A stretch of DNA of 64,000 nucleotides from Thermoanaerobaculia bacterium (GTDB lineage Bacteria; Acidobacteriota; Thermoanaerobaculia; UBA5066), in NCBI GenBank assembly GCA_963816185.1, contig CAWFJJ010000030.1, positions 224,001 through 288,000 of the forward strand, in the 5' to 3' direction. The translations under genes were made by a program, and so were the position numbers. A model generated the notes under the pieces. The model was not told the origin of the DNA. It was given only the letters and a program-made list of their open reading frames with translations, and ran no database searches. Shown in pieces: positions 37,623-63,579 of this stretch (positions are counted from its first letter, which is position 1; each line of letters starts with the position of its first letter).

Positions 37623-37658
37623 CGAAACGGGATGAGGATAAGGGTTTTTTGCTTCGGA

Positions 37659-37675
37659 GCGCGCCTTCGGCGCGC
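37659..37675. repeat. REP-like GC hairpin at the edge of the Rhs island
   Basis: GCGCGCC-TTC-GGCGCGC. Confidence 0.4.
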
Positions 37676-37738
37676 CGGAGGAGCGAGGGGTTCTCTATTC
37701 GGCGCCCCCGGCGGCTGCCCGGTACGCGTCCTCGGGCT

Positions 37739-38140
37739 TCAGCGCATGGCTGAGAAGTAGAGAAACGCCACGTACGCCAGCCCCGCTAGCACGGCGCCGA
37801 TGATGACCCGCTTCATCCAGAGTTCGATGCGATCAAGTACCCTGCCGCCCTGCCACCATCGTATCGGCGGCTCATCTTCCCGCAGTTCCTCGATATCACA
37901 GGTGTGGCCGCTGGCAGCGGCCGAGACTTCGCCGCAGACAGGGCACTTTTCGTATTCACAATCCGGTACATGGAACTGGCCCCGTTCAACGCCGCAGCCA
38001 TTGCAGGGCGCATCCCCCCACCCCGCGCCTTCATCACCATACTTGATCCGGGGAACTTGCTTTCCATTTACGGTGTAATGGGTAAGCGCCTGTGCGTTGG
38101 CGATCCGCTTCTTCCAGGCCTCGCTCGTCTGCCTTCTCAT
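37739..38140 (-). CDS. Candidate immunity protein: Cys-rich Zn-binding domain plus C-terminal TM
   Basis: ATGA overlap with the toxin stop codon; CNGC..H..C....CPVC..C; low GC like the toxin tip. Confidence 0.65.
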   Translation of the reverse strand: MRRQTSEAWKKRIANAQALTHYTVNGKQVPRIKYGDEGAGWGDAPCNGCGVERGQFHVPDCEYEKCPVCGEVSAAASGHTCDIEELREDEPPIRWWQGGRVLDRIELWMKRVIIGAVLAGLAYVAFLYFSAMR

Positions 38141-39345
38141 TTCTGTGGTCCGTCACAGCAGAGCTCGTTCAGGTATCCGATCACACCGCCGGAGACACCT
38201 CCAGCGACCGGTGCCCCAAAGATCAGACGTCTAATGAAGGCCTCGGCCCAGAGAGTGCCGGGCTTTCCATTCATGTAGCTGTTGAGCGCCTTTGGGATTG
38301 CTATTAGTCTCCAGGCTTCGTTGCTTCCCCCAAACCTCTGGGCAGTAAGCCAGTGGTGAAGATCCCACTTGATGCCGAGGTGTTCGGCGCCCCCCAGCGT
38401 CTTCCAGAAGCGGGCACTAACGGTGGAGAATTTGCGGGTCTCATTCAAGAGCCTCGGGCCTGCCAATGCATTACCAGCTCCACGCAACGGAAGGGGCGCA
38501 GCGATGCTCAGCCCCTTGAGTAGAGAGAGCGCTCCTTTAACAACGCCACACAAAGTGTCCCCACTACCAAAGTGCTCACCTGACTGTTGGGCTTCAGCCA
38601 TTCCGGCGGTTCTGAGCAACGCGGCGGCTATTGACGCACCTGCTGCGGCGAGCGGGTCAGTCGACGTTTTGGCAACGTCGTCGTAGAAGGCTAGTGTGGC
38701 GCGTATATCCCAATAGTCGCCAAACTCCGCTCCTAATGGGTCTACCCAGTGAGAAGGCGCACGTCCAGCATAGGAGTAGAAACTACTGTCAACTGCGGGG
38801 CCGAATGGATCCTCCGCAGTGAATCTCCCGGCTCCCGCCTGGTAATACCTAGCCCTGTAGAACCACAGTCCCGCTTCAGCGAACTCGCGTCCCGTGTATC
38901 CGAACGCACTGAAGCGCGTGCCGGTCTCGGTCCGTGTCACGCCCCAGACGTCAAAGATCGAGTGGTGAGTGAGGGTGCCGGCTGGACTGTTTTCGCCTAC
39001 GTCCGTTCCGAGTCCATCGACGTCGATATACGAAAGCGTTCCTGCGCGGTAGAGCGCGAGCGGCTCGTCGATTGAGGGCCCGAAGGCGTAGTCGGTGTTT
39101 GTGCCTGACGTTGTTTCTCTGATGAGATTTAGGCCGTCGTAGAGATAGGTAGTCGTGACCCCGCCAACAGTCTTCGAGATACGTCTCCCCTGGTAGTCGT
39201 AGGTGTAGGCGGCGCCTGTCGCACCCGTGATCGATCGCAGGCGATTATCGAAGTCGGACGAGAACACGTAGTTCCCACTCGGCCCGCTGCGTGCGGTCTG
39301 GTTTCCGTTCAGGTCGAACGCGTAGGCGTTCGCGCCATCGTTCTG
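38137..39345 (-). CDS. Rhs core C-terminus plus HNH-like toxin tip (segment of giant gene)
   Basis: GYTGREF..GLWFYRARYY..GRF..EDP..YSYA..PSHWVDPLG cleavage motif; the tip contains WDLHHW...GGSNE..RL......N. Confidence 0.85.
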   Translation of the reverse strand, partial: QNDGANAYAFDLNGNQTARSGPSGNYVFSSDFDNRLRSITGATGAAYTYDYQGRRISKTVGGVTTTYLYDGLNLIRETTSGTNTDYAFGPSIDEPLALYRAGTLSYIDVDGLGTDVGENSPAGTLTHHSIFDVWGVTRTETGTRFSAFGYTGREFAEAGLWFYRARYYQAGAGRFTAEDPFGPAVDSSFYSYAGRAPSHWVDPLGAEFGDYWDIRATLAFYDDVAKTSTDPLAAAGASIAAALLRTAGMAEAQQSGEHFGSGDTLCGVVKGALSLLKGLSIAAPLPLRGAGNALAGPRLLNETRKFSTVSARFWKTLGGAEHLGIKWDLHHWLTAQRFGGSNEAWRLIAIPKALNSYMNGKPGTLWAEAFIRRLIFGAPVAGGVSGGVIGYLNELCCDGPQK

Positions 39346-41900
39346 AGAGCTCTTGCCCGTCGAGCGGGTTCGCCCCGTTCTTGAAGTACGTATAGCTCTG
39401 GATGGCGGCGTTCACTTGGTTCGTCAGCCTATTCCCGATGGCGTCGTAGGTCCACTGATCTACCTCGCCGTTGAAGGGCGGCGCGGCCGGATACTGAGCC
39501 TTCACGAGCTGGTAGAGCGGATCATACGAGTACTTCGTCTGTGCGTTCGTGAAGCCCTGGTTCGGGACGTTGGCGGTCATCGAGACCCTCTGCCCGAGCA
39601 TAGTGTTCAGCCCCGTCACCCAGTCGACATCGTAGCCGTAGGCGTACGTGGCGAGGTTCTTGGCGCCGAGGGCGTTCGCGATCTGGGTGAGCCGCCCCTG
39701 GTCGTCGTAGACGTACGTCCGCGTCTGCCCGTTCGGGAACGTCACCGTCTGGTACTGCCCCCGCGGGGTGTAAGCGTACTTGAAGAGCCCCGCCTGCGGG
39801 CTCCAGGAGATCGTGTTGAGCGAGCCGTCGGAATAATAGGTGTGCGCCGTCGTGACGTTGGGGGTGCCGGCGATAGTCATCGTGTCAACCCGGTCGTCGG
39901 GGGTGTACGTATAGCTCAGCGTTCCGCGCGGACCTTGGACGTTCTGGGCGACGCGGTAGCTCGTGTCGTACCCGAACGTGTGGGTCTCGCTCGGGGTGAG
40001 GGTGGTGTCGACGACCTGCGTCAGCTTCTGGCCCTGATACGTGTACGTGATGGTCCCGTTGGAGCCGTAGTCCTTCTTCTTGAGGCGCTTGAAGCCGTCG
40101 TACGTGTACGCGATCGTCTGCCCCCTGCGGTCAGTCTTCGACGCCAGGAGGCCGCCTCCCCCGTAGGCATAGCTCTCGATCGAGCCATCGGGGAACGTCG
40201 TCTTATCGAGCCGCTTGAGCGGATCGTAGTGGTAGCTCGTGACGTTGCCGTTGGCGTCGGTGATGGAGGTTAGGACGTCGTTCATGTAGGCGTAGGTCGT
40301 GACGTTGTTCAGGGCGTCGATCGACTTCAGGAGCCGCCCGTGCTGGTCATAGCCGAGTTTCGTGAGTCTTCCGTTGGGATCCGTGATGTTCGTGAAGACG
40401 AGGCCCGAAGCGCTGTCGTAATTGTCGTAGGTGTAAGTGGTCGTGAAGCTGCCCGGGAAGCTCGGCGTGGGTTTCGGCAGGGTGACTGTGAGCACGCGGC
40501 CGAGGGCGTCGTAAGTGTATGTCGTGTCCTTGGCCGCGGGATCCGTGATCGTCCGCGAACGCCCGACGCCGTCGTAGTTCGAGTACTGCGTGATGGGGCG
40601 GATGCCGGAGTCGGCGTTCGTAGGTTGGGTCACAGTGGTGAGGTTCGCACCCGTATAGGCGTAGTTCGTCACCGCGCCTGTCGATGAAGTTTGCTGCGTG
40701 ACACGGCCCTGCGCGTCGTATTGGAACGTGGAAATGGTACTCGTCGTCGCGCCGTCGCTCTGGAGGCGCTTAACGTGGTTCAGGGTGCCCGACGCGAGGT
40801 AGTCGTAGCGCCAGCCTTGCCAGTTAGGTTCGAAGACCCCGGAGACAGGATTCTTCGGCGTGACCGAGGTGACCTTGTCGGGGAAGGCAGGGTCGTACGT
40901 GTAGTCGAAGCGCACGGGGGACCCGAGCACGTCGCGCGTCACGCTCGTGACGCGGCCGGCCGGGTCGTACGTGAAGTCGGTCCTCACGCCAACCTCGTCG
41001 ATGATCCTCGTGACGTTTCCGTCGCTGTCGTAGTCCTTGTGGGTCGTCCCCGAGCCGCCTGTCGCAGGGGGGGTGCTGTCTACAAGCAGGCCGGCGCCGC
41101 GAAAGCCACGGTCGTACTGTTGCCCAGAGAATCGGTCTTTCTCGTATGGGTCGTGTCGATGTAGGTATAGGAATAGGTCTCGAAGTTCTCGGTATAGGTC
41201 TTTGCCCTGTCGGCCACGTCGTAGGTCATAACTGTCAGCACGCGGTTCCAGTGGTCGGCGATCTGAGTCAGGAGCGGCCCGAAGCTGCCTTGCGCGTAGC
41301 CGTAGCGCGTTGCCAAGCCGGCGGGGTTGGTGACGGACGTCAGAGTCCCGTCGGCGGCGTAGGCGTACTGGACGCTTCTGCCGGCCGAGTCCTGGAGGCG
41401 ATCGATCTTGCCGTCGCCGCGGTAAGACACGGTGATGAAGCGGCCGGACCCCGAGGCATCGGCGACCTGAGTCGGCCTCCCGCTTGCGTCGTAGCCGATC
41501 GTGACCGTGTTGCCGTACTCGTCCCTCATGGAAACGAGGCGGCCCTTGTCGTCGAAGTGGTAGACGATTCGGCTCCTCTCGAGAGTCAGGTCGAAAGTCT
41601 TGTCCACGTTCCTGACGAGCGTGTCCTTTCGGCCCTGAGGCGGCGTGAACGGCCCGCTCGCATTGCCGAACGTGAAGCGGAAAACGACGCCGGTGGGCAT
41701 CTGAATGTCGAGCGCCTGGCCCGCCGAGGTGGCGACATACGCGAGATGCGCTTGAAGGCTCGAGCTCCAGCCGATCCCGTTGAGGTCGCTCTGGCGCTTG
41801 GAGCTGAAGTACTTGCGCGAGACCTGAAGGGGCAGGCCGGCTGTCGGAAGAACGAGATCGGTCGCCTCGCTTTGATAGGTGCCTGTGGCCGCGAAGACCG
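39345..41900 (-). CDS. Rhs/YD-repeat cage with DUF6531-like start (segment of giant gene)
   Basis: SPVFAATGTY...DL.LP..GLPL..SRKY.S...G.GW, followed by many YxYDxxGR repeats; frameshift near 41095. Confidence 0.85.
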
Positions 41901-44414
41901 GTGAAGCCGTGCACGGACTCTCGATCGTCTCCCCATCCTGGCACGTACAGCACATGGCATTCGGATCTATCTTGTTCTCGACGACGAAGAAGGCCTCACC
42001 CCCCCAGTACTCGGCCTCGGGTTGATCCCCCTGTTTGTTCACGAGGCGAATGCGGTATCGCGGCGTATCTCCCGAAGATGGGTCCACTTGGAGGAAGTAA
42101 TAACCAAGCCTGGCCGGAGCCTTCAGCAGCTCGATGCCGAGATAGCCGCGGTTGTTCGAGCCCCCGGATGCATTCAGGGTGACCGGGTCGATGACTCCAT
42201 CGAGGCTGTCGAGCGGCGGAACCGCAAGCGTGTCGCACGGTCGGCCGGCCTGGCCGCTCGGTCCGGACTGCTGGGGAGGCCCTTCGTGATCGAAGCGCGG
42301 GCAGCGGTGGACGCGGAAGGCGCCCTCCGTGACGACTTGCCTTCCTCGTCGCGAAGACTCAGCCGGAATCTCGGCGCATCGCTCGTCTCCAGGCGCGGGT
42401 CCTGTGGATTCTTGAGCCTGTCGACGACGCATCGCGGCGCGCTGGGATTCTGTTTCCAGATCGTGTGCGGGTCCTCGAACGCTTCCACCTGAAGGGGCCA
42501 GCTTCCGATGACTGACTCCCCGTCATTCGGAGGAGAACAGGCGTTGGACGTCGCCGGCGGAAGTCTTGGGCATCGCAGATGTGGTGGCGCCGGGAGCCAC
42601 GCTGAACGGCGTGCCACGTCATCGACTCGGAGGCGCGCCTCGTAGCTCGCGAACGGCACGAGCGCGTGATAGGTCTCGCGATAGAATTGGAGGTACAGGT
42701 TCTTGGTGACGGTTCCTCCTGCCCAATCGGGGTCGTTCGGATAGTTCACGCTCAGAGTCGTCGTGTAGCGGCTCGCCGGCATAGAGGGGTCATCGTTCTA
42801 ATGGACGCATGTGGAATAGCCGGCGAAGTCGGTGGTGTCAGAGCTCTCGCCGAATATCGACAGCGTCTGGTCCTTGAATTCCACGAAGATGTTCGGTTGC
42901 GGTTGTGACGCCGAGGTGGACGTATAGCCATAAGTCACGTTGTCGTACCGGTCGTTGAGGAAGTAGGAGTTGAAGAGCTGAGTCCAGAGGCTCTCGAACG
43001 GAGGATTGCCGTTCAGCTTCGTGCCGCTCCGGAACTTCAGGAAATCGGACCAGTACGCCAGGAGGTTCGGGCAGGGAGAGCGCGACGCGTCGACGCAGGA
43101 GAAGTAGTCGGGCTTGCCAGTTCGACGCGGACGGGATAGAGGTACTCGTTCTGCAGGGAAAGTCCGGACGCGTCGAGGGTGTTGATTGCTAGATCGAGTA
43201 TCTCGCTCATTCCCCAGACGGGCTTGTAGGGAGGAGTCGTGACTTCGACGCCGAGGAAGTGAGAGTAGGTTCCGAGATTGAAGCCGATCTCCTCGTCGGC
43301 GCCGGGAGTTTCGTGCCAGAAGAGGGAAGCCGATTCGCATTCGATGCGGGCGCCTGCCGGGTCGAGAATGATCGTTCCGGGGGCGGCGCCTCCGGGAGCC
43401 AGACTGACGAGGACCGGATAATTGGGCGTCTGTCCGTAGGCGTCCTTGATGGCGATCCTGAGATGGATCTCCTTCCCCGTCCTGTGCCCGTGAATGCCGT
43501 CGATCTCGTCGACCACGCCGTTGGCCGTGCTTTGCCCGGTGGAGGGAGTCTCGTCGGTCAGGACGACCGTGAAGGGGGGATTGACCTGTAGTGCGCTGAC
43601 CGCGGCTTCGTCGAAGACCGTGGGGAAGCACCCGGTAATGACCTGGGTATGGATCGTAAGCGGCCGAGCGGGCGATCGAGCAGCATGGGGCGCGGAGCCT
43701 GCCGCACGTTCGAAGTCGAGGCCGACGAGCTTTGGTGCGCAGAGTCGCGCGCCGCGGGGATTTCAGCTCCTCCCCGGCGATCGACTTCCTCTCTGCCAGC
43801 TCGGGCGCTGGGAACCTCTCGAGGCGGCCGCCCGAGAGGGAAAGGTCGTGGCCTGAAATGCCGACGATGCTGATCGGGAGGCGGCCCGCGGGCCGATACC
43901 GCTGCACGGCCACCTTTGGCGACTCCTCGTCCTGGCGGGATGTGACGGCCGCAGCAGTCTCCTCTTGAAGGACGACACCCTGAGCGAGTGTCGAATCGAC
44001 GAGCACCGGCGAGAATCCGACCTTGCCGGGCGAAGTGAGCTTGGCGTAGACGAACGCGTAGCCGTCGACGCTCGTCGTCGTGGTGCTGCCGCCGACGAAC
44101 TGGACAGTACCGAGGTTGTCGGGGGACGAAATGACGGTATGGTTGACATCGGCTCCCGAAAGCGGCCAGCCACGCGGGTCCAGCATCAGCGCATTGGTCG
44201 ACAGTGTGGTGTTGACCGTGAGGGTGTTGTGGTTCCCGCTAAAGGGGACGGCACGCGAAGTCTGCGGGACAGGCGCCATGAAGGCGACGTTGAAGGTCAG
44301 CCGGTAATCGCCGCTTCCTCTGATCGTTTCGACGGCGATGAAGTAGACGCCGGTATGGGGCAGCACCGCATTCGTGATGGAGGCGTTGTAGTCGACGCTC
44401 GGGACGTCATCGAA

Positions 44415-53358: not shown

Positions 53359-53909
53359 TTCGAACCTCCCGAACTTCTTCGCCCGCGGCCGCGCGGCCAC
53401 CTTCAGCGCACGTACTGATCCTTCATTCCATGGAGTGGCTTCTTCGGGTCCTCTTTGACCCTACGGACGCTGTGGAATGTCCAGCGAAAAGAAACTCCAC
53501 CGGTCATCGAGGTCGTGCAGTTGTCGCGAGGTTTGGCGGAATTGGCCACGGAAAGCTCACGCCGGTCCAGATGACCAAGACCATGACCAGACCTCTTGCT
53601 CAGGGCAATTACTCCTCGAGACTCGAGTTCTTGGCGAAAAGCGACGGTTTGCAGCAACAACCTGATATTTCCGACGACGCCAATTCAATGATTCATCTGC
53701 ATAAGAGGCCGGAGGGCGAAAAGACCCCTCAAGACCGTCTCCAAAAGGGGGTGTCTGCGCTTGGAAGCCCGCCGCGAGACTCTGAAACCGCCAGAGTCTT
53801 ACGCCCTTTGCGATCAACCTAGAGGCGCGCCGCCTTCAACGAACCGTCCGGAACTACGGGACGCCGGCGGCCTGACGCTCCAGAAAGCTCGGCAAGCGGT
53901 TTGAGCGCC

Positions 53910-53942
53910 AAGAAACACAACGGCCCGGCTGGTGCCGGGCCG
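53910..53942 (-). terminator. Intrinsic terminator
   Basis: Minus strand CGGCCCGGC-ACCA-GCCGGGCCG followed by TTGTGTTTCTT, downstream of the gene ending at 53995. Confidence 0.7.
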
Positions 53943-53994
53943 CCGCTCTCTATTCTTCTAAGAAAATCTTCTCTTCGTCTTCCTCTTCGAGCCT

Positions 53995-55683: not shown

Positions 55684-55759
55684 CACGAGCCTCCGTGCAT
55701 CGAGAATTCCGGGGATACGCTCGGCCGGGACCGACAAATAGAGAGATTAAGGCAAATGA

Positions 55760-55788
55760 AGTTTATCCCCCGCGAAAGACCTTGTCAA
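55760..55788 (-). promoter_or_regulatory. Sigma70 promoter
   Basis: TTGACA (55788-55783), 17-nt spacer, TAAACT (55765-55760). Confidence 0.6.
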
Positions 55789-55814
55789 ACAGGAGGTTAC
55801 GGCCGGAGTTCGCG

Positions 55815-56786
55815 TCAGCTCATCTCGTCGGCGCGCGCGAGAACGCGCACGTGCTCGACGGCCGCCGCCGCGGTCGCCTCGGGGTCGTAGCCGCCCTCCA
55901 ACAGCGACACGATGCGCCCCCCCGCGAACGCGTCCGCCACGTCCCCGAGGGCGCGCGACATCCACGAGAAACCCTCCGTCGAGACGCACATGCCGCCGAC
56001 CGGATCGGCTTCGTGGGCGTCGAAGCCCGCGCTCACGAGGACGAACTCGGGCCGGAAGCGCTCGGCCAGCCTCTCGAGCGCCGCGGAAAACCCGCCCGCA
56101 TACGCCGCGTCGCCTGCCTTGGCGGGCTGCGGCACGTTCACGGTCGTCCCACGCCCGCGGCCCGCGCCCTCCTCGTCCGCCGCGCCCGTGCCCGGGTAGA
56201 AGGGATACCGGTGCACGGAGAGGTACGCGACGCGGCCGTCGTCCCAGAAAAGGTCCTGGACGCCGTTGCCGTGATGCACGTCGAAGTCGGCCACGAGGAC
56301 GCGCGCGACGCCGTGATGCTCGATCAGATCCTTCGCGGCAATCGCGATCGAATTCAGGAAGCAGAAGCCCATCGCGCGCGACGGGAGGGCATGGTGCCCC
56401 GGCGGACGCGCCGCCACGAACACGGATGCCGCGCGCCCGGCGACGACCGCATCCGTCGCGGCGAGCGTGAGCGACGCGGCGCGCAGCGACGCCTCGAACG
56501 TGCCGGCCGAGAGCACGTTGTCGGGGCAGTCGAAGAGCGCGAAAGGTCCCCCGTAGTCGGCCGGCGCTTGCTTGCAGAGCTCCGAGAGGCGATGCACGTA
56601 TTCCGGGTCGTGCACCCGCTCGACGGCCTTCAGCGTGCGTTCGGGGGCGGGCGGCGCTTCGATGCGCCGTCCGTCCTGCCGGAGCGCGTCGACGGCGACC
56701 TCCAGCCGATTCGCGTTGTCCGGGTGATAAAGGCCGGTGTCGTGCTCGAGGACCGCGGGATCGAAGTAGACGGGCACGGTACGCAC
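55815..56786 (-). CDS. Histone deacetylase-family (Zn-dependent) amidohydrolase
   Basis: RPPGHHA, GFC, DFDVHHGNG, YPGTG, SAGFD and LEGGY. Confidence 0.93.
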   Translation of the reverse strand: MRTVPVYFDPAVLEHDTGLYHPDNANRLEVAVDALRQDGRRIEAPPAPERTLKAVERVHDPEYVHRLSELCKQAPADYGGPFALFDCPDNVLSAGTFEASLRAASLTLAATDAVVAGRAASVFVAARPPGHHALPSRAMGFCFLNSIAIAAKDLIEHHGVARVLVADFDVHHGNGVQDLFWDDGRVAYLSVHRYPFYPGTGAADEEGAGRGRGTTVNVPQPAKAGDAAYAGGFSAALERLAERFRPEFVLVSAGFDAHEADPVGGMCVSTEGFSWMSRALGDVADAFAGGRIVSLLEGGYDPEATAAAAVEHVRVLARADEMS

Positions 56787-56824
56787 CTTCCGAGCCTACT
56801 CCAACCGTGGGCTACCATCGACGC

Positions 56825-57916
56825 GTGACAGCATCGAAAAAGGGAGTCCGCGTCGCGATCTCGCTCGGCCTCGCGGTCGTCCTCCTCGCGCTGTTCTTGA
56901 GGACGCTGGACTTCGCGGCCGTGGGCCGCGCCATCGCCTCGGCGCACGTCGGCTGGCTCGCCGTCGCGACCGCGGCCGGCCTCCTCGGGACGCCGCTCTT
57001 TCGCTCGTGGCGCTGGGCTCTGCTCCTGAAGAAGGCCGGACACCCATCCTTCCTCGCCCTCAACTCGGCGACGGCGATCGGTTTCGCCGCCTCGACATTG
57101 CTCCCGGCGCGCGCCGGCGAGATCGTGCGCCCGGTCGCCCTCGCGAAAGACGCCGGCCTTCCCGTCGCGCCCTGCCTCGCGTCGATCGCGCTCGAGCGCC
57201 TCATCGACCTCGTCACCGTCATCGTCCTCTTCGTCGTCTACGCGGTGGGATGGGCGCCGCTCGCGATGAGCGGCGACGAGGCCGGGCGCTTCGCGCTGCT
57301 GCGCCGCTCGGCCCTCCTGCTCGGAAGCGGCACGCTCCTCGGCCTCGCCTTCCTCGGCTTCCTCGCGGCGAAGCCCGAGCGCGCCGACCGCCTCGTGAAG
57401 CCGCTCCTCAGGCCGTTGCCCCCGAAGGTCGGCGCGAAGCTGGAGTCGATCCTCCTGTCGTTTCTCGACGGCCTCGGCACGCTCGGGTCGGTCCGCGAGG
57501 TTCTCGTCGTGGCGGCCGCCTCGCTCTTCCTGTGGACGCTCATCGCCTTTCAGGTCTGGTCGACGCTGCGCGCCTTCGACCTCGTGTTTCCCTTCCCCGT
57601 CTCCTTCTTCGTCGTCACGTGGGCCGTCCTCGGCCTCGCCATTCCCACGCCGGGCGGCGTGGGCGGCTATCACACGGCCATCGCGTATTCGCTGACGGGG
57701 TTCTACGGCGTGGCGAAGAACACGGCGGCGGCGTTCGCGCTCGTCTCGCACGCGCTGTCGTTCGTCCCGATCACGCTCCTCGGGCTCGGATTCCTGGTCG
57801 CGGGCGGATTCAGCCTGCGGAGCCTCGCGGCGACGCCTGTGCCTGCGCCAGAGCCATCGTGTAGTCCGAGCCCCACACCGCCGGATTCGACTCCAGCATC
57901 TCGACCCCCAGCTTGA
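56825..57916 (+). CDS. Lysylphosphatidylglycerol synthase TM / flippase-like membrane protein
   Basis: RSWRW, LPARAGE, LERLID and PTPGGVGGYH; multi-TM. Confidence 0.85.
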   Translation: MTASKKGVRVAISLGLAVVLLALFLRTLDFAAVGRAIASAHVGWLAVATAAGLLGTPLFRSWRWALLLKKAGHPSFLALNSATAIGFAASTLLPARAGEIVRPVALAKDAGLPVAPCLASIALERLIDLVTVIVLFVVYAVGWAPLAMSGDEAGRFALLRRSALLLGSGTLLGLAFLGFLAAKPERADRLVKPLLRPLPPKVGAKLESILLSFLDGLGTLGSVREVLVVAAASLFLWTLIAFQVWSTLRAFDLVFPFPVSFFVVTWAVLGLAIPTPGGVGGYHTAIAYSLTGFYGVAKNTAAAFALVSHALSFVPITLLGLGFLVAGGFSLRSLAATPVPAPEPSCSPSPTPPDSTPASRPPA

Positions 57917-58166
57917 AAAAGCCCGTCTGATCGAGCCCGGCCTGCCACACCACCCGGCAGTGGCACATCACGCGCGTCCGCACGTTCTCCAGCTCGAAAA
58001 TGTCGCCGGCCGTCACGTTCGTCTGCGCGTACACGAGCGCTCCGTGGCTGTTCACGATGAGTGTCGATCCGCTGAACCTCTGCCCCTCCCAGCGCATCGA
58101 AATCGGAATCCTCAGCGCAACGCGCGGACTCCGGCGCAGCTCGTGAAACGCATCGGGCTCGAGCAA
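57810..58166 (-). CDS. PilZ-domain protein
   Basis: RRSPR (RxxxR) and NSHG ((D/N)xSxxG-like), CRVVW and LGVEM; GGAGG before the TTG start. Confidence 0.7.
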   Translation of the reverse strand: MLEPDAFHELRRSPRVALRIPISMRWEGQRFSGSTLIVNSHGALVYAQTNVTAGDIFELENVRTRVMCHCRVVWQAGLDQTGFFKLGVEMLESNPAVWGSDYTMALAQAQASPRGSAG

Positions 58167-58204
58167 GGAGCGACCTCCGAAGGGGAGATTATCCGATAAA
58201 GGGG

Positions 58205-58390
58205 TCAGCCCGTCTTCTTCTCGTCGGAGGGCTTCTTATCCATCCATTCCTGGCAGGCCTTGCAGATGAAGGCGTTCAGCCGGGGGACGAATCTCCATTC
58301 GTCGGACTTGTCCGCCTCGCAGAAGAAACACCGGCGCCGCTGGCGCGGCGCGACGGTCTCATCGAAGGGTTCGCGATCCTCCGGGGGCAT
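58205..58390 (-). CDS. Small C4 zinc-finger protein (ClpX-ZnF-like spacing)
   Basis: CFFC...ICKAC; about 61 aa from ATG 58390. Confidence 0.55.
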   Translation of the reverse strand: MPPEDREPFDETVAPRQRRRCFFCEADKSDEWRFVPRLNAFICKACQEWMDKKPSDEKKTG

Positions 58391-58461
58391 CGTCGTTGCG
58401 GCTAGTTTGAGCCAACTCCTCGCGCGGCTCAAGTCGACCCCTCCGTGGATCCTCGCGGAGC

Positions 58462-58884
58462 TCAGCGCGAATGCCCCGCCCTGTACCGATCAAGCCTTCG
58501 CCTGTCGATCTCGGACGCGATTCCACGCGTGACGAGGTCATCCAGGATTGCGGCAGCAGCCGGGATGTCGCCCGAGAAGGCGAGGTCACGCGAGTGCGTG
58601 CTTCGAGCCTTGCGATAGAGCTCCATCGGTGCGGGGGGAACGGAGAGACCGTGCTGCACCGTGTCGGGGTCGTGAAGCGCCTTCTCGTGGAGGACGAGGG
58701 CGGTCTCCGCGGCTTCCTCGAGTCGACGAACGTCGTAGAGCGCGGCGACGTAGAAACAGAAGACGGGGTAGTAGCGGTCCGCGTTCGCGAAGAGGGGTCC
58801 GAGCGCCTGAATGATTCGCTCGGAATCGGAGGGATGACACTCCGCGTACCTGGCATTCAGCTCTTCTTCGAACGCGTTCGTCAT
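58462..58884 (-). CDS. Hypothetical helical (TPR-like) protein directly downstream of the retron RT
   Basis: 140 aa; starts 8 nt after the RT stop with an AGGA RBS. Confidence 0.7.
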   Translation of the reverse strand: MTNAFEEELNARYAECHPSDSERIIQALGPLFANADRYYPVFCFYVAALYDVRRLEEAAETALVLHEKALHDPDTVQHGLSVPPAPMELYRKARSTHSRDLAFSGDIPAAAAILDDLVTRGIASEIDRRRLDRYRAGHSR

Positions 58885-58892
58885 GGTTGGTC

Positions 58893-60563
58893 CTAGACTC
58901 CACCGCCACCGAGAAAAGCTTTGAGCGACGAGATTGGAATGGCGCAGTGGTCCTCGGTGTCTCGGGACGTGGCATCCGAATCCGCACCGGTGACGGCGAT
59001 GCCCACCACCTCGCCACCCGCATTCAATACCGCCCCCCCGCTCCCTCCGCGCACGACGGCTGCGTCGAGCCAGAGTCGACGTCTCGGCGATGACCGAAAC
59101 CCGGAGACACGGCCGCTGGTCACGCGAATCGGATCCCTCGGCCTGTGGTTTGGAAACCCAGCGACGAAGATTGCATCGTGGAACGTTGGCTCGACGTCGC
59201 TGACGGCTAGGGCCTGATCATCTGAAAGCACACAGCCCGCGACCTCGATCAGCGCCAGATCAAGCACTGGGTCGCGGCGCAAGATAGTGACCCGGTATGT
59301 CACCTCTGGCTGCTCCGGGCGATAGGCAATCGATTTAGCTCCGACGACATGGTCGCAGGTTACGATTCCAACTCCGCGAAGCGCGACAGCCGTACCTTGT
59401 CGAATGTCATCCCCGTCATCCTGCTCAAGCACCCACATCGCGGGGCCGAGCATGCGAGGAAGTTCTGTAGGAACGAATGGCTCGAGCGGAGCGGGTTCTG
59501 CCGGAAATGGGTACTTAAAAGATGGGACCAGGTCTGAGTATTGTGCAAGGAGACGACGGAAGCACCGGTTTTCCGCCCCGCGGACCATGCGGAGGTAATC
59601 CAGCTTCCCCTTCACGACGCGTTGATAAGACGGGCCCGACCGCTCTGGCGCACGGTGTCCTCGCGCATAGCGAGCGCGGTATTCCGACTCTGCGAGCTCA
59701 AGGCCGAAACGCCGCCACGCGTGCAACATCGCTCGGATCTGACGCACGAGGCGCCGATCGACATTGGGGAACTCGTTGACGGTGAGCCCTGTAACGCGTT
59801 GCCTCTCAGCGGCCCCCGAAAGCCGCACCTTGCCGGGGTTCACAAAGAAACCATTCGACGTAATCACGGCCTGTAAATCGGGCCCGATAGCGACACTAGC
59901 GTCTTCTTGCTTGCGGCATAGTCGGCCCGGGAACCTCGAGGCCGTGGTAGAGAATGTGATGTCGTCGGCGTAGCGGGTGTAGGTCGAGTGGCAGGACCGG
60001 GCGAGTCGCTGGAGCTGGCCGTCTAGACGAGCGCAGACCATGTTTGCCACGACCGGCGACGACGGTGCGCCCTGGGGCAGCTGATTTCCGTGACAGCAGA
60101 TCTGGGCCAATACGGTCGCAACCTCGGCGTTTCGCTCGTAAGGCTTTGCGCGGAACACGCCGCGAACCCTGCCGAAGTTGATGGTCGGGAAGAAGTCCTG
60201 AAGATCAACGTTAAGGACCTGGCACCGACCGACATGCGATGACGCATTCGTTACGATTCCCCGTCCTCGGACGAAACCGTGCACCGACGGCTTCAATTCC
60301 AAGACCGCTTGGAGCACCTGGTTAAGCTTTCGCTGTATCAACTTTAGAGCTGTTATTGGGGAACTGATAACCCTCTCGCCTCCCCGCCTCTTCGGGACGG
60401 AGTACGTCGTGTACCGCGCGTCCTCCGGTATCCGGTGGAGGTGATAGGTGAGAGCGCTGTAGGAAACGTCGAGGAGTGCAGCAACTTCCCGCGGCGTCGT
60501 AAGCGAGAAGAACGCCACGCGCAACTCTTCAGGGCTGCCCGAGAGATCACGTGAGCCGCGCAT
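58893..60563 (-). CDS. Retron-type reverse transcriptase fused to a C-terminal trypsin-like serine protease
   Basis: PKRRGGER.I..P, region X NASSH, DLQDFFP, LPQGAPSSP, YTRYADD and region Y VTGLTVN. Protease triad TCDH / DLAL / GGSGG. The start is set at ATG 60563, just after the ncRNA arm. Confidence 0.93.
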   Translation of the reverse strand: MRGSRDLSGSPEELRVAFFSLTTPREVAALLDVSYSALTYHLHRIPEDARYTTYSVPKRRGGERVISSPITALKLIQRKLNQVLQAVLELKPSVHGFVRGRGIVTNASSHVGRCQVLNVDLQDFFPTINFGRVRGVFRAKPYERNAEVATVLAQICCHGNQLPQGAPSSPVVANMVCARLDGQLQRLARSCHSTYTRYADDITFSTTASRFPGRLCRKQEDASVAIGPDLQAVITSNGFFVNPGKVRLSGAAERQRVTGLTVNEFPNVDRRLVRQIRAMLHAWRRFGLELAESEYRARYARGHRAPERSGPSYQRVVKGKLDYLRMVRGAENRCFRRLLAQYSDLVPSFKYPFPAEPAPLEPFVPTELPRMLGPAMWVLEQDDGDDIRQGTAVALRGVGIVTCDHVVGAKSIAYRPEQPEVTYRVTILRRDPVLDLALIEVAGCVLSDDQALAVSDVEPTFHDAIFVAGFPNHRPRDPIRVTSGRVSGFRSSPRRRLWLDAAVVRGGSGGAVLNAGGEVVGIAVTGADSDATSRDTEDHCAIPISSLKAFLGGGGV

Positions 60564-60567
60564 GGAT

Positions 60568-60710
60568 GAGGCGCCCGAAGCCAAGACTCTGCTTTCCGAT
60601 GCGCGCAAGCGCGCGATGCAACCGCAAACGCAGCAATGTTCCCGTATCCAGGGACCTTAGATAAACCGTCGCGGATCAACGACGAAAATCAATCGAGCTT
60701 CGGGCGCCTC
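60568..60710 (-). ncRNA. Retron msr-msd non-coding RNA
   Basis: Perfect 14-bp terminal inverted repeat GAGGCGCCCGAAGC (60568-60581) / GCTTCGGGCGCCTC (60697-60710). It encloses two short msr-like hairpins (60667-60684, ~60640-60654) and a long msd-like hairpin centred on GCGCGC-AA-GCGCGC (60601-60614). Confidence 0.82.
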
Positions 60711-60721
60711 CGTCGTGCCGG

Positions 60722-60750
60722 ATCGTAGTCGGCTGGATTTGATTTCGCAA
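60722..60750 (-). promoter_or_regulatory. Sigma70 promoter of the retron
   Basis: TTGCGA (60750-60745), 17-nt spacer, TACGAT (60727-60722). The predicted TSS near 60715 is about 5 nt before the ncRNA 5' arm. Confidence 0.7.
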
Positions 60751-60831
60751 ATAACGGCCCGCTCGAACCAGTGCGCCTCTTGCCGCCGGTCGACGTTCCT
60801 GAACGCGATTCAGGAGCTGTAGCGAGGCGCC

Positions 60832-61130
60832 TCAGTTCTCCTTGCCATGTTCCTTCTCCTTCTCCTTGGCCGGCGGGTTCGCCTTTGCAGCCGGCGGAGG
60901 GCCCTGCGGCTTGGGCTGCACGTGCTGCACGCGCTGCACGTTGGGCTGTCTCTCCACGTGGGCGGGAGGAGGTTGATGGGCGGAATTGAGTTGTGCCTGA
61001 GCGACGGGCTTTCTCGTGTCGCTCGTTCGACGGCGGAGGCGGCGGCTGATGAACGGTCGCCTTCTCGCGTTTCTCGTGCGAGCTTTTCGGGGGCGGCGAA
61101 TGGACCTCCCGCTGCGCCTGAAGCTGAAAC
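60832..61130 (-). pseudogene. Displaced, diverged copy of the 3' end of the 62362-63579 gene
   Basis: Encodes ...PVAQAQLNSAHQPPPAHVERQPNVQRVQ...KEKEKEHGKEN* like the intact gene; +1 frameshift near 61010; no start codon. Confidence 0.85.
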
Positions 61131-61148
61131 CACTTTTCCCGGGCCGGG

Positions 61149-61946
61149 TCAGAGCGGCAGAATGGCTTTCCACCGAATGCCGCCGAAGCGCCACGGGCGA
61201 ACACGGAGGCTCGTGCCGTCATTGTACAGGAGCAGCGCAACGAGGTGCTCCGTCACGATATTCAAGTTTCCATCGACCGGAGCCCCCCACTTCATTTCCG
61301 GCAGTGGCGGAGCGTCATCCCCATCCATTCGGAGAGCTAGACCATCTCCACGACCAAAGATGTTTTTTATTGTACCGGTGAAAGTCGGGAACAGAATCGC
61401 CGTCTTCGACGTGATATGGGCCCTCCCGAATAATTCCACCTCCCACGGGAGCTTGACGAGCCCCCGGTCCTTCAGGCGATCGATATGACTGACGGCCATC
61501 TTGATCAGCGGCGCGAATAGTATTCCGTCCGGGACGTATGTTGGGGGGTCGACAGGATTGAACTTCGCCGGCCTTTCGTCGAGCAAATTGCGGCGCAGGA
61601 TATCGAGAGGGGTTTCGGCGTGGAGCGGGGTCGAGTCGGTCGCTGGCACACTTGCCGTGCGCCCGGCCAGTTCTTCCATGCGCCTCAGCATCGGCCCGCC
61701 GGGATCGACGAACCCGCTTCGCTGCCCGGGGAAGTGCTTGTCCTCGAAATGCGAGATGGCGCGATAGAGGGCATCGCTCGACAGGCCCGAAACGATGGGG
61801 CCGGTGAGGCTTCCCCCCGAGCCGCCCTCACTGGGGGGAATGCGGTTGAGCAGCGCGATCACCGCCTGCTGGTCTTCTGACCAGTTTTGGCACTGGCGCG
61901 CTCCGGCCCGGGTGTGTCGGCCAACACGTCCTCTAAGTGACATCAT
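61149..61946 (-). CDS. Hypothetical protein with N-terminal peptidoglycan-binding-like domain
   Basis: GGAGG RBS; VG...N..EDQQAV..LLN...AISHFE...GFVDPGG.ML resembles PG_binding_1-like modules; lower GC. Confidence 0.65.
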   Translation of the reverse strand: MMSLRGRVGRHTRAGARQCQNWSEDQQAVIALLNRIPPSEGGSGGSLTGPIVSGLSSDALYRAISHFEDKHFPGQRSGFVDPGGPMLRRMEELAGRTASVPATDSTPLHAETPLDILRRNLLDERPAKFNPVDPPTYVPDGILFAPLIKMAVSHIDRLKDRGLVKLPWEVELFGRAHITSKTAILFPTFTGTIKNIFGRGDGLALRMDGDDAPPLPEMKWGAPVDGNLNIVTEHLVALLLYNDGTSLRVRPWRFGGIRWKAILPL

Positions 61947-61974
61947 GTCCTCCCTTCGGCCCTCTATTCACATT

Positions 61975-62235
61975 ATTAGCCAGGAATTCGCGTTGAGCGG
62001 ACGACACGAATTCGAGGCGGTAAGCTACGCCGTTACATACCGCCACGCTTACGAACCTCGGCCCAGGATCCTCTTGGGGTTGGCGAGCCGGGAGACGGAC
62101 ACGCTCACGTCGTAGCGATCCTCCAGCTCCTCAAGGAGCTTCAGGTCCGCGATCGAGACGACCGCGGCGACGGGCTTCTTCCCCCGGCGCGTGATCACGC
62201 GCTCGCCGTGGCGCGTGCCATCGAGAACGGGATTC
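61975..62235 (-). pseudogene. Decayed Phd/YefM antitoxin plus truncated RelE/ParE toxin
   Basis: GERVITRRGKKPVAAVVSIADLKLLEELEDRYD, then after a frameshift WAEVRKRGGM*, followed by AYRLEFVSSAQREFLA, which breaks off. Confidence 0.7.
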
Positions 62236-62361: not shown

Positions 62362-63579
62362 TCAGTTCTCCTTGCCGTGCTCCTTCTCTTTCTCCTTGCC
62401 CGGCGGATTCCCCTTGGCAGCGGGCGGAGGACCCTGCGGCTTGGGCTGCACGCGCTGCACGTTGGGCTGTCTCTCCACGTGGGCGGGAGGGGGTTGGTGG
62501 ACGGAGTTGAGCTGTGCCTGAGCGACGGGCTTCTCGTGTCGCTCGTGCGACGGCGGAGGCGGTGGTTGATGGGCCGTTGCCGCCTGCTCGTGCTTGACGT
62601 TCTTCTCATGAGAAGGCTGGGATGGTGGTTGATGGACCGTGGCCGCCCGCTCGTGCTTGATGTTCTTCTCATTCGAAGGCGGAGGCGGCTGCTGATGGAC
62701 CGTCGCCTTCTCGTGCCGCTCGTGCGAAACCGGGGGCGGCTGGAACGCCCGCTCGGACTTGGAGGGCATCGTGCGCGAAGCCTGCGACGGAGCGCGCTTC
62801 TCGTGCTCCGAGATCAGTTTCGCCCGCTCGCCTGCGGGGACGACGACCGAGGCTCGTTTCCCCTGTAGGGACGTGCGGATCGGGACCGCCTGCGTTTTCG
62901 CGTGGGCGAGGCTCACGCGCTGAATCCGCTTCCCGGCGACGCGTTCGACCTGCGAGATCGGCGGGCCGCCGGCGGACAGGGCGCCGCCCTGGACCGCGAA
63001 CCGCGTGACGGGTCGCGAGCGCGCGATGAACGTCGCGTTCTGGGTGACCGGAACGCGCACCGAGCTCACGTTGACGCCCGCGAACTGCCGGGCCGGCACG
63101 AATACATACGCGCTGCGCGACACGGTCACCGCCGGGCCGACGTAACCCGAGATCCCGACGGCGAAGCTCGGCGGGACGGGCGCCCATCCGAAAGCGTCGT
63201 CCGTGATGTACCACGTCACCCAGGCGGGGGCCCAGACGGTCCCTGGAATCCAGATCCATCCGTCGTCGGCGGTGTCGACCCACGTTCCGTAGTGATACGG
63301 GTCGCCGCCCCACGGGTCGAACGAGACCCAGGTCCAGCCGTCCTCCGTGTAGACCCACTCACCGTCGAGATAAGGCTGCCAGCCCACGGCGACGTGCCGG
63401 GGGTGCCAGCAGCGGCCGTAGCTTCCGACCGTGACCCAGTCGCCGTAAGGCGCGAGCGAGTCGTAGAAGAACCCGACGCTGACGGAAACGGACGCGCGCG
63501 CGGGCTGCGCCGGCACGGCGACGCCGACGGCGACAGCCAGAGCGAGTACGAGGAAAACGACGCGATTTTTCAATCGCAT
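62362..63579 (-). CDS. Secreted DUF6600-like protein with Pro/His/Gln-rich repetitive tail
   Basis: AAGGAGG RBS, signal peptide, FYDSLAPYGDW..WQPY..G.W..GWTW..YHYG.W..WAPAWV.W..GWAP, and HQPPPPPS.E repeats. Confidence 0.85.
   Translation of the reverse strand: MRLKNRVVFLVLALAVAVGVAVPAQPARASVSVSVGFFYDSLAPYGDWVTVGSYGRCWHPRHVAVGWQPYLDGEWVYTEDGWTWVSFDPWGGDPYHYGTWVDTADDGWIWIPGTVWAPAWVTWYITDDAFGWAPVPPSFAVGISGYVGPAVTVSRSAYVFVPARQFAGVNVSSVRVPVTQNATFIARSRPVTRFAVQGGALSAGGPPISQVERVAGKRIQRVSLAHAKTQAVPIRTSLQGKRASVVVPAGERAKLISEHEKRAPSQASRTMPSKSERAFQPPPVSHERHEKATVHQQPPPPSNEKNIKHERAATVHQPPSQPSHEKNVKHEQAATAHQPPPPPSHERHEKPVAQAQLNSVHQPPPAHVERQPNVQRVQPKPQGPPPAAKGNPPGKEKEKEHGKEN

What the first reader, a model, noticed from the sequence alone, without database searches (positions are those of the whole stretch)
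58462..60750. Complete retron with RT-protease fusion and an extra, tightly linked unknown gene: candidate anti-phage system variant
Seen: promoter, then a structured 143-nt RNA closed by a 14-bp inverted repeat, then an RT with the retron-specific NAxxH and VTG motifs and YADD, fused to a trypsin-like domain with intact His/Asp/Ser, then a 140-aa ORF 8 nt downstream. Known: retrons are tripartite abortive-infection systems, and RT-protease fusions were, as I recall, predicted as type XI with little mechanistic work. Inference: msDNA holds the protease inactive until a phage perturbs it, and the active protease then cleaves a host target or the downstream protein. That would be an msDNA-gated proteolytic switch in a poorly studied lineage.
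Basis: partly seen in the sequence, partly recalled or inferred. Interest (0 to 1): 0.85.

Follow-up and report, generated by a model that had tools for sequence, protein, structure and literature searches.

The report
Ordinary type XI retron with neighbour gene
This is a complete retron of the known "type XI" kind (a reverse transcriptase fused to a protease, preceded by its small structured RNA) sitting in a horizontally acquired island, and the small gene just behind it is real but does not travel with other retrons of this type.

Summary
The features are real but lie on the minus strand. They are a 143-nt RNA closed by a perfect 14-bp inverted repeat (60710..60568), a 556-aa RT-protease (60563..58893), and a 140-aa ORF 8 nt downstream (58884..58462).

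**Retron identity.** The fusion protein matches PADLOC RT-Protease_XI end to end (E 3.6e-162). NAxxH, YADD, VTG and the His405/Asp435/Ser508 triad are intact. An inverted repeat in the same place occurs in 22 of 26 type XI loci (perfect, at least 8 nt). It is followed by a covarying hairpin that loci typed I-C and XII also carry. The closest solved relative is retron Ec67/Eco2.

**Island.** The retron sits in a low-GC island, and the retron was not found in the 3 same-genus genomes searched.

**The extra gene.** It encodes a confidently folded TPR-like protein. It is not found beside any of 25 other type XI loci. Its only visible homologues elsewhere are N-terminal fragments that are not next to a retron. 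Whether it belongs to the system is open (about 1 in 4).

**Not supported.** The "promoter" is a sub-threshold match. The msDNA-gated protease switch is inference by analogy with Eco2.

**Verdict.** A new member of a known kind; modest interest.

The parts
60722..60750 (-). Weak sigma-70-like promoter candidate (TTGCGA, 17 nt, TACGAT). It would start transcription about 6 nt before a1.
   Evidence: Read. It has 8 of 12 matches, below the threshold of the scan, which found 0 sites. Not more than chance; inference only.
60568..60710 (-). Retron ncRNA (msr-msd), 143 nt, delimited by the a1/a2 repeat.
   Evidence: inverted repeat. (z = -4.60). A same-place inverted repeat occurs in other type XI loci.
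60697..60710 (-). a1 arm (5' arm of the closing stem).
   Evidence: 14 nt, 100% complementary to 60568-60581.
60568..60581 (-). a2 arm (3' arm). It ends 5 nt before the RT start codon.
60645..60698 (-). Conserved 5' (msr) module shared by clade-8 retrons: a GATTGA-like motif, hairpin 1 and an AAGGT-like motif.
   Evidence: Only hit of models R1 (39.7 bits, E 2e-8) and R2 (42.2 bits, E 1.9e-8) in the 64-kb window.
60666..60685 (-). Hairpin 1 of the msr: 6-7 bp stem and 6-8 nt loop. The simple scan also picked it up as 'terminator-like'.
   Evidence: Covariation.
60586..60633 (-). Probable msd stem-loop region, the template for msDNA. Boundaries are not determinable from sequence.
   Evidence: MFE structure. 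Inference from retron anatomy.
58893..60563 (-). RT-protease fusion gene, 556 aa (P0001).
59514..60512 (-). Retron RT domain (about residues 18-350). NASSH at 60234-60248, YADD at 59961-59972, VTG at 59787-59795.
   Evidence: PDB best match is Retron Ec67 protein, E 1.6e-58.
58998..59396 (-). Trypsin-like serine protease domain (about residues 390-522). His405 at 59349-59351, Asp435 at 59259-59261, Ser508 at 59040-59042.
   Evidence: Weak DegP/HtrA/MarP matches.
58462..58884 (-). 140-aa ORF (P0002): a small all-helical TPR-like protein. Membership of the retron system is unproven.
58205..58432 (-). 75-aa ORF with a CxxC...CxxC zinc ribbon. It is the last gene of the variable island and probably not part of the retron.
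   Evidence: Pfam GATA and zf-C4_ClpX matches are below their cutoffs. Paralogous DNA occurs elsewhere in a same-genus genome.
58203..58204 (.). Left edge of the variable island. Synteny with three same-genus genomes ends here.
60832..61081 (-). Duplicated copy (about 90% identical) of the 3' end of the DUF6600 gene (62362-62600), directly upstream of the retron.
   Evidence: families D1-D4.

Best explanation
Window 58893-60710 (minus strand) is a canonical type XI (clade 8) retron. It consists of one transcript-proximal ncRNA (msr-msd, 143 nt, closed by a 14-bp a1/a2 stem that ends 5 nt before the start codon) and one gene. [quoted passage not shown]

The retron lies in a horizontally acquired, lower-GC island. 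The retron was not found in the 3 close relatives searched for it.

Shown: the anatomy, the family assignment and the conservation of the ncRNA architecture.

Inferred, by analogy with retron Eco2 (the closest solved relative, where msDNA cages the fused nuclease until a phage nuclease degrades it):
- The RT copies the msd into msDNA.
- The msDNA-RNA-protein complex keeps the fused protease shut.
- Phage interference with the msDNA frees the protease.
- The protease then cleaves cellular proteins and aborts the infection.

The 140-aa gene 8 nt downstream is a genuine gene for a small TPR-like protein, probably co-transcribed. It is not a conserved part of type XI retrons. Most likely it is a passenger or a recent lineage-specific addition. 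My odds: type XI retron 0.93; msDNA-restrained protease mechanism about 0.5; ORF not needed for retron function about 0.7.
For: Family:
- PADLOC RT-Protease_XI E 3.6e-162 and 6.6e-160, full length, ahead of RT-TIR_XII (1.8e-124) and RT-Toprim_I-C (1.3e-113).
- All 120 listed of 3452 homologues (E<=1e-10) carry PF00078 and PF13365.
- Invariant N106, H110, Y198, D200, D201, V257, T258, G259, H405 and S508, and near-invariant D435, in 31 sequences.
- PDB best hit is Retron Ec67 protein, E 1.6e-58.

ncRNA:
- Perfect 14-bp inverted repeat; z = -4.60.
- A perfect inverted repeat of at least 8 nt, spanning 100-170 nt and ending -50..+30 from the RT start, occurs in 19 of 23 type XI loci against 12.9% of 967 control anchors. 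At 12 nt or more it is 5 of 23 against 0.1%.
- It also occurs in 3 of 3 further plasmid loci.
- With G-U pairs and one mismatch allowed, the best repeat scored 8.5-20 in all 22 loci searched, but for 4 (L025, L039, L042, L060) it was not the arm pair beside the hairpin, so I kept their perfect repeats (9, 6, 8, 10 nt). L051 is 5'-truncated.
- Model R1, built from 13 type XI sequences, hit 34 places at E<=1, all on the RT strand. 33 lie upstream of the RT, and 21 hits lie in 19 loci outside the training set. These include loci typed RT-Toprim_I-C (L043, L031, L023, L024) and RT-TIR_XII (L049, L038).
- Hairpin pairs are 99.4% paired with 31 double changes, against 10.2 +/- 3.9 in shuffles (this alignment is fitted to the model).
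- Khan et al. state that validated ncRNAs include clade 8, type XI (passage of PMC10849725).

Island:
- Synteny with G095, G246 and G154 stops at 58203.
- GC is 0.61-0.64 for the RT, P0002 and orf265, against 0.70-0.72 for the flanking host genes.
- The RT-protease was found in 0 of 3 same-genus genomes in the phylum sample.

ORF is real:
- GC1/2/3 is 0.68/0.46/0.77.
- Homologues at 71-78% identity exist.
- AlphaFold2 gives pLDDT 94.9 and pTM 0.88.

ORF is not a core part:
- The A7 profile found it only in the window's own locus and in three fragment loci, among all ORFs of the 107 loci then held (L001-L107).
- 0 of 3 annotated plasmid type XI loci list such a gene.
- There is no similarity among 20 downstream ORFs of the type XI loci.
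- G458 has a fragment of the gene but no RT-protease.
Against: - No msDNA, transcript or defence data exist for this locus. No RNA run was listed.
- No promoter passed the scan.
- I found no paper showing that any type XI retron defends against phage or what its protease cuts, so the mechanism rests on analogy with a nuclease-fused relative.
- Models R1 and R2 missed 11 of 12 type XI loci outside the training set (L019, L020, L033, L035, L039, L042, L045, L048, L058, L108, L110; only L109 was hit, E 0.064). In those loci the hairpin was seen by eye only.
- The 13 training sequences were picked because they were in register, so one search is biased.
- In a quick, unfinished tree of 82 RT domains the protease-fused RTs are not one clade. 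The tree needs 10 changes, and well-supported branches force at least 2. The window's RT sits, with weak support, among RTs with other C-terminal parts.
- In favour of the ORF being part of the system: an 8-nt gap with its own Shine-Dalgarno sequence, the same strand, the same GC as the RT, and the same island. The contigs of its four near-full-length homologues were never seen.
Confidence: 0.8

Rival explanations
1. Four-part variant. The TPR-like protein is a working accessory of this retron lineage. It could be the protease's latent substrate or pro-effector, released or activated by cleavage. Or it could be a TPR adaptor that holds the protease or recognises a phage protein.
For: - 8-nt gap, own Shine-Dalgarno sequence, same strand.
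- Same GC as the RT and inside the same island.
- Confident fold. TPR domains are protein-binding modules (established knowledge).
- Trypsin-like proteases in other defence systems activate effectors encoded next to them (abstracts of PMC12799240 and 10.1101/2025.11.14.688446; passages).
- Type XI-like lineages with separate accessory genes exist (abstract and passages of PMC13712802).
- One other type XI locus (L018) has an alpha/beta-hydrolase 21 nt downstream (Abhydrolase_3, E 1.4e-50). That is a class named among protease-activated effectors in the abstract of the preprint.
Against: - 0 of 25 other type XI loci carry a relative.
- Homologue fragments in two independent loci (L012/L107, L013) have no protease gene upstream. 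DNA similarity starts at the ORF's own start codon.
- G458 has the fragment and no RT-protease.
- No PADLOC, Pfam, NCBIfam or PHROGs match.
- No fused longer forms were found (weak evidence).
Confidence: 0.25
2. The retron is an inactive relic. The RNA and gene look intact but no longer make msDNA or defend.
For: No promoter passed the scan. There are no expression data. The island shows rearrangement nearby, a duplicated 3' end of the DUF6600 gene.
Against: The ORF is uninterrupted. All invariant catalytic and family residues are kept. The a1/a2 stem is perfect over 14 bp. GC3 is coding-like.
Confidence: 0.05
3. The RT is not a retron RT but belongs to another class (group II intron, DRT/UG, Abi) that happens to be fused to a protease.
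For: Weak partial matches to group II intron RT/maturase (E 1.2e-13), Drt2 and Drt3a.
Against: - Those matches score 21-51 bits against cutoffs of 200-390.
- The retron profiles score 414-539 bits.
- The retron-specific NAxxH and VTG motifs are present.
- The best solved relatives are all retron RTs.
- An a1/a2-flanked ncRNA lies upstream.
Confidence: 0.01

Closest known systems
Type XI retrons (Mestre et al. 2020, PMC7736814; PADLOC RT-Protease_XI)
   Same: [quoted passage not shown] Full-length profile match, E 3.6e-162.
   Different: Mestre 2020 and Toro 2026 (passages) describe type XI as a single gene 'lacking recognizable ncRNA modules'. Here, and in 22 of 26 loci, an a1/a2-flanked RNA lies directly upstream. 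This locus also has a tightly spaced extra ORF that the other loci lack.
Retron-Eco2 / Ec67 (type I-C; PDB 9lm3, 9i2f; PMC12916289)
   Same: Closest solved relative (E 1.6e-58 over residues 20-287). A single-protein retron with the effector fused to the RT C terminus. Loci typed I-C share the 5' ncRNA module.
   Different: The effector is a TOPRIM nuclease that cuts tRNA, not a protease. Its trigger (the phage nuclease DenB) and trimeric msDNA cage are shown only for Eco2 (abstract). I did not test the Ec67 locus itself with the RNA model.
Type XII retrons (RT-TIR)
   Same: Second-best profile match (E 1.8e-124 over the RT part). NCBIfam Retron_TIR_antiphage E 2.1e-105, below its cutoff. Loci L049 and L038 share the ncRNA module.
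   Different: The C-terminal domain is TIR, not a protease.
[quoted passage not shown]
   Same: Type XI-related RTs with separately encoded accessory proteins and candidate a1/a2 ncRNAs (abstract and passages).
   Different: Those lineages lack the protease and carry WYL or DnaB_C proteins. This locus keeps the protease and its neighbour is TPR-like.
Protease-effector modules of other defence systems (PMC12799240; 10.1101/2025.11.14.688446)
   Same: A trypsin-like protease attached to a sensor, with a small gene next to it (abstracts; passages).
   Different: [quoted passage not shown] P0002 matches none of the libraries searched and does not co-occur with the protease elsewhere.

Membership tests
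Type XI retron | Retron-type RT: region X NAxxH, region Y VTG and catalytic YADD. | tested here: met
   NASSH at 106-110, YADD at 198-201, VTG at 257-259. These are invariant in a 31-sequence alignment.
Type XI retron | Best and full-length match to the type XI RT-protease profile rather than other retron types. | tested here: met
   PDLC02960 scores 538.9 bits over profile positions 3-503 of 506. Next are RT-TIR_XII at 414 bits and RT-Toprim_I-C at 379 bits, on the RT part only.
Type XI retron | [quoted passage not shown] | tested here: met
   Trypsin_2 E 1.2e-17. His405 and Ser508 are invariant and Asp435 is conserved in at least 90%.
Type XI retron | RT falls in one clade with other protease-fused RTs. 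| tested here: inconclusive
   Quick, unfinished tree of 82 RT domains. The XI label needs 10 changes (shuffles average 20.4; 0 of 500 as low), and well-supported branches force at least 2. The window's RT is placed with weak support among non-XI RTs.
Retron (any type) | Adjacent ncRNA closed by a1/a2 inverted repeats, with msr hairpins. | tested here: met
   14-bp perfect inverted repeat. z = -4.60. Same architecture in 22 of 26 type XI loci at 8 nt or more, perfect. A covarying hairpin is shared with I-C and XII loci.
Retron (any type) | Production of msDNA primed from a branching G. | not testable with these tools
   The priming G cannot be assigned from sequence. The conserved G of the GATTGA-like motif just 3' of a1 (60694) is only a candidate.
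Retron (any type) | Anti-phage or abortive-infection phenotype dependent on the effector. | not testable with these tools
   No experiment was possible. The four searches found no published test for type XI.
   The profile of the ORF's family found nothing in the other 22 type XI loci from genomes. Three plasmid loci list none. The contigs of P0003-P0006 were not available.
TPR repeat proteins (for the 140-aa ORF) | Match to a TPR sequence profile. | tested here: not met
   P0002 has 0 Pfam families at E<=0.01. Of 10 remote relatives scanned, 8 show TPR-type or related helical-repeat hits, and only 2 (P0139, P0140) have a hit above its Pfam cutoff.
TPR repeat proteins (for the 140-aa ORF) | TPR-like helical-repeat fold. 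| tested here: inconclusive
   The AlphaFold2 model has 8 helices and pLDDT 94.9. Foldseek against PDB found only TPR/PPR chains, but with best E 0.058 and TM <= 0.52 normalised to the query. The nearest Atlas clusters are named TPR, score 0.95.

The most novel reading that the evidence does not exclude
Type XI retrons are msDNA-gated proteases that act on swappable, neighbour-encoded latent proteins. In this lineage the cargo is a small TPR-like protein of an undescribed family. In L018 it is an alpha/beta-hydrolase 21 nt downstream. In others the target is cellular. Cleavage or release of the TPR-like protein by the freed protease would be the killing or signalling step. This would link retrons to the protease-activated effector modules recently found in Avs, Hachiman and CBASS-type systems.
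Probability: 0.2. Interest if true: 0.65.

Novelty: new member of a known kind. Interest (0 to 1): 0.3.

Why it matters
Type XI retrons are abundant. One search returned 3452 RT-protease proteins at E<=1e-10. Yet I found no paper showing what their protease cuts or whether they defend.

This locus adds nothing categorically new, but the comparison made for it gives two usable results.

- **ncRNA.** Canonical type XI loci do carry an a1/a2-flanked ncRNA directly upstream. Its first hairpin is shared with loci typed I-C and XII. Two surveys (2020, 2026) list type XI as lacking a recognisable ncRNA, although an experimental census reports validated examples. This gives a simple rule for annotating and cloning such retrons.
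- **Architecture.** No downstream gene recurred beside the RT-protease in the 26 loci examined. The tightly linked TPR-like gene here is therefore either a passenger or a rare lineage-specific addition. If it were the protease's substrate, this small system would be a convenient handle on the unknown type XI mechanism.

Tried and rejected
- **Rfam.** Nothing at E<=1 on 57500-62000.
- **Loose RNA cut.** A 201-nt cut was no more stable than shuffles, so I used the exact a1-a2 span instead.
- **Promoter scan.** No site.
- **MAFFT of whole ncRNAs.** A3 aligned only the first hairpin. A4 misaligned 4 of 22 sequences. I therefore built R1 from 13 hand-picked in-register rows (A5), a biased subset.
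- **Weak P0002 hits.** P0002 in 401 genomes of the phylum gave only weak hits (E 1.9e-4 to 9e-3) in 6 genomes. The family profile found nothing in 5 of them, so I dropped them as chance. The sixth, G024, is flagged unpublished and I did not search it further.
- **P0002 in libraries.** PADLOC, Pfam, NCBIfam and PHROGs gave nothing.
- **Fused forms.** The search for longer fused forms of the family found none (weak evidence by the tool's own note).
- **Viral contigs.** The scan with A7 could not be run because no stretch was conserved enough.
- **Complex prediction.** RT-protease with P0002 returned 'no answer', score 0.00. This is not evidence either way.
- **Sequencing runs.** No RNA holder was listed. 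Four DNA runs of one study hold 151-368-nt pieces identical to parts of the RT and the ORF. No piece bridges the RT-ORF junction, and these may be the source samples. This is no evidence on expression, habitat or linkage.
- **Cluster look-up.** It gave no accessions or context for P0003-P0006 and P0009.
- **Zinc-ribbon paralogue.** The context in L106 was uninformative.
- **Phage collection.** Only partial RT matches.
- **RT tree.** The careful search did not finish in 288 s, so only the quick tree is reported.
Full report
**What is there.** All features lie on the minus strand.
- The ORF list gives a 571-aa frame, 60608..58893, and a 140-aa frame, 58884..58462.
- A perfect 14-nt inverted repeat has arms at 60697-60710 and 60568-60581. 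The second arm lies inside the TTG-started extension of the long frame.
- Homologues align from the Met at 60563. The gene is therefore 60563..58893, 556 aa (P0001), and the a2 arm ends 5 nt before its ATG.
- The RNA delimited by the arms is 143 nt. It folds at -68.1 kcal/mol, z = -4.60, with 0 of 200 shuffles as stable. A looser 201-nt cut was not better than shuffles (z = +1.44).
- Rfam has no match.
- The sigma-70 scan found no promoter.

**The protein.**
- Pfam finds RVT_1 and Trypsin_2.
- PADLOC's RT-Protease_XI profiles match end to end (E 3.6e-162 and 6.6e-160). RT-TIR_XII and RT-Toprim_I-C match the RT part only.
- NCBIfam gives below-cutoff matches to the TIR and Ec67 retron fusions, and weak DegP/HtrA/MarP matches for the protease part.
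- In an alignment of 31 RT-proteases (42-84% identical to the query) the retron marks are invariant: NAxxH (N106, H110), YADD (198-201), VTG (257-259), and the protease His405 and Ser508. Asp435 is nearly so.
- The closest solved structure is the Retron Ec67 (Eco2) protein, E 1.6e-58.
- The family is large. 3452 proteins scored E<=1e-10 among 8000 scored candidates, and all 120 listed carry both Pfam domains. The nearest is 85% identical and the next 51%.
- A quick, unfinished tree of 82 clade-8 RT domains does not make the protease-fused RTs one clade. It places this RT, weakly, among RTs with other C-terminal parts. That agrees with the modular exchange described by Mestre et al. (passages).

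**Is the RNA a retron ncRNA?**
- I collected 23 type XI loci: this one, L095, and 21 of the 80 loci from genome contigs whose ORF covers the protease part of the profile.
- A perfect inverted repeat of at least 8 nt, spanning 100-170 nt and ending within -50..+30 of the RT start, is present in 19 of 23. The rate is 12.9% at 967 control anchors in the same loci. At 12 nt or more it is 5 of 23 against 0.1%.
- Allowing G-U pairs and one mismatch lengthened the arms in several loci (for example L017, L032, L044, L047), but in four (L025, L039, L042, L060) the relaxed search picked a different pair, and I kept their perfect repeats of 9, 6, 8 and 10 nt. L051 was left out: it has a 5'-truncated RT.
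- Three further type XI loci on plasmids have repeats of 8, 9 and 13 nt in the same place. At the 8-nt perfect criterion the total is 22 of 26.
- Directly after a1 every locus I inspected shows a 5-7-bp hairpin with a loop near TTGTTACCTG, and many compensatory stem changes.
- A covariance model from 13 hand-picked, in-register type XI sequences (A5, R1) found 34 places at E<=1 in 610 kb. All are on the RT strand and 33 lie just upstream of the RT.
- 21 of these hits, in 19 loci, lie outside the training set. PADLOC types some of those RTs as RT-Toprim_I-C (L043, L031, L023, L024) or RT-TIR_XII (L049, L038). The Nostoc RT-only loci L014-L016 are also hit.
- On that model-fitted alignment 99.4% of cells pair, with 31 double changes against 10.2 +/- 3.9 in shuffles.
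- Against this, R1 and the iterated R2 missed 11 of 12 type XI loci outside the training set.
- In the window the only hit is 60645-60698 (E about 2e-8).
- Conclusion: the RNA is a clade-8-type msr-msd.

**Literature on the type XI ncRNA.**
- Mestre 2020 and Toro 2026 say type XI has no recognisable or validated ncRNA (passages).
- Khan et al. 2024 state that their validated ncRNAs include clade 8, type XI (passage).
- The point is therefore partly known. I could not see the supplements.

**The island.**
- Three same-genus genomes match window 53995-58203 at 75-90% identity and then diverge.
- GC falls from 0.70-0.72 in the host genes to 0.61-0.64 in the zinc-ribbon ORF, P0002, the RT-protease and orf265.
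- In the phylum sample a full-length RT-protease was found in only 1 of 400 other genomes (G162) and in 0 of 3 same-genus genomes.
- Upstream of the retron lies a 250-nt copy, about 90% identical, of the 3' end of the DUF6600 gene.

**The extra ORF.**
- It looks coding: GC1/2/3 is 0.68/0.46/0.77.
- It has six relatives at 71-78% local identity, two of them N-terminal fragments.
- It matches more distantly the C-terminal 115 residues of a family of 206-265-aa proteins (19 of the 22 hits at E<=0.001). That family has conserved Y38, P40, C43, P86, G105, A110 and D127.
- AlphaFold2 gives an eight-helix model with pLDDT 94.9.
- Foldseek returns only TPR/PPR chains, weakly, and the Atlas neighbours are named TPR.
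- It is not a recurrent retron partner. The family profile hit only this locus and three fragment loci among all ORFs of the 107 loci then held (L001-L107). The downstream ORFs of the other type XI loci share no similarity. The three annotated plasmid loci have a recombinase, a GNAT protein or nothing behind the RT.
- The fragments (L012 and L107 are the same locus in two assemblies; L013 is separate) carry only residues 1-50 or 1-69. They have other genes upstream, and their DNA similarity begins at the ORF's own start. G458, which holds one of them, has no RT-protease.
- The contigs of the four longer homologues (P0003, P0004, P0005 full-length; P0006 lacks the N-terminus) could not be fetched, so co-occurrence there is unknown.

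**Mechanism.**
- Shown: the parts list above.
- Inferred from Eco2, where a branched msDNA scaffold cages the fused TOPRIM domains until the phage nuclease DenB degrades it (abstract): msDNA made from 60633-60586 or thereabouts restrains the fused protease, and phage interference releases it.
- What it cuts is unknown. Recent work on protease-effector pairs (abstracts; passages) keeps open that a neighbour-encoded protein is the target. L018's alpha/beta-hydrolase 21 nt downstream is a lead in that direction.

**Verdict.** This is a canonical type XI retron, a new member of a known kind. The extra gene is real but its link to the retron is unsupported. Interest is modest.

Noticed in passing
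window 37622-53994: A 16.4-kb stretch is absent from three same-genus genomes, where 37621 abuts 53995. It holds very long ORFs, one of them with RHS repeats (39245..41953, PF05593 E 4e-42). It looks like a second variable island, possibly a polymorphic-toxin-type locus.
   Followed up: partly
window 60832-61081 and 62362-62600: The 3' end of the DUF6600 gene is duplicated (about 90% identity). The two copies flank a 1.28-kb segment that holds orf265 (61149..61946). orf265 has no family match, and its only Atlas lead is a weak one to peptidoglycan-binding domains, score 0.89.
   Followed up: partly
L018:4587-5510: A Bacillota type XI retron has an alpha/beta-hydrolase gene (Abhydrolase_3, E 1.4e-50) 21 nt after the RT-protease stop. 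L045 has a PemK/MazF-like gene 323 nt downstream, and L109 has a GNAT gene 64 nt downstream. These are variable neighbours that might be protease cargo or chance.
   Followed up: partly
L014, L015, L016 (Nostoc) and plasmid hits H10, H12: The RT domains most similar to this one in isolate genomes (51-55% identity) belong to cyanobacterial RTs of about 365 aa without any fused C-terminal domain. They still carry the same upstream ncRNA module, with the best R2 scores.
   Followed up: partly
L051:2550-2850: Upstream of the 5'-truncated type XI RT of Paracoccus sp. MKU1 the sequence looks, by eye, like a glycine riboswitch. This was not tested with Rfam.
   Followed up: no
window 40333-40405; L012:1014-1086; L107:934-1006: A 73-nt stretch (85% identical) is shared between the first island of the window and the loci that hold the P0002-like fragment, about 500 nt from that fragment. 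It is not a tRNA, since ARAGORN found none in the window. It may be a repeat or the end of a mobile element.
   Followed up: no
L037:6222-6274: A second hit of the ncRNA model lies 1.6 kb downstream of the RT match in a Parcubacteria contig. It may mark a second retron.
   Followed up: no
window 58205-58432: A 75-aa ORF has a CxxC...CxxC zinc ribbon, with weak matches to the ClpX zinc finger and GATA models that fall below their cutoffs. It closes the island, and related DNA (74-76% identity) occurs at two other places in a same-genus genome.
   Followed up: partly
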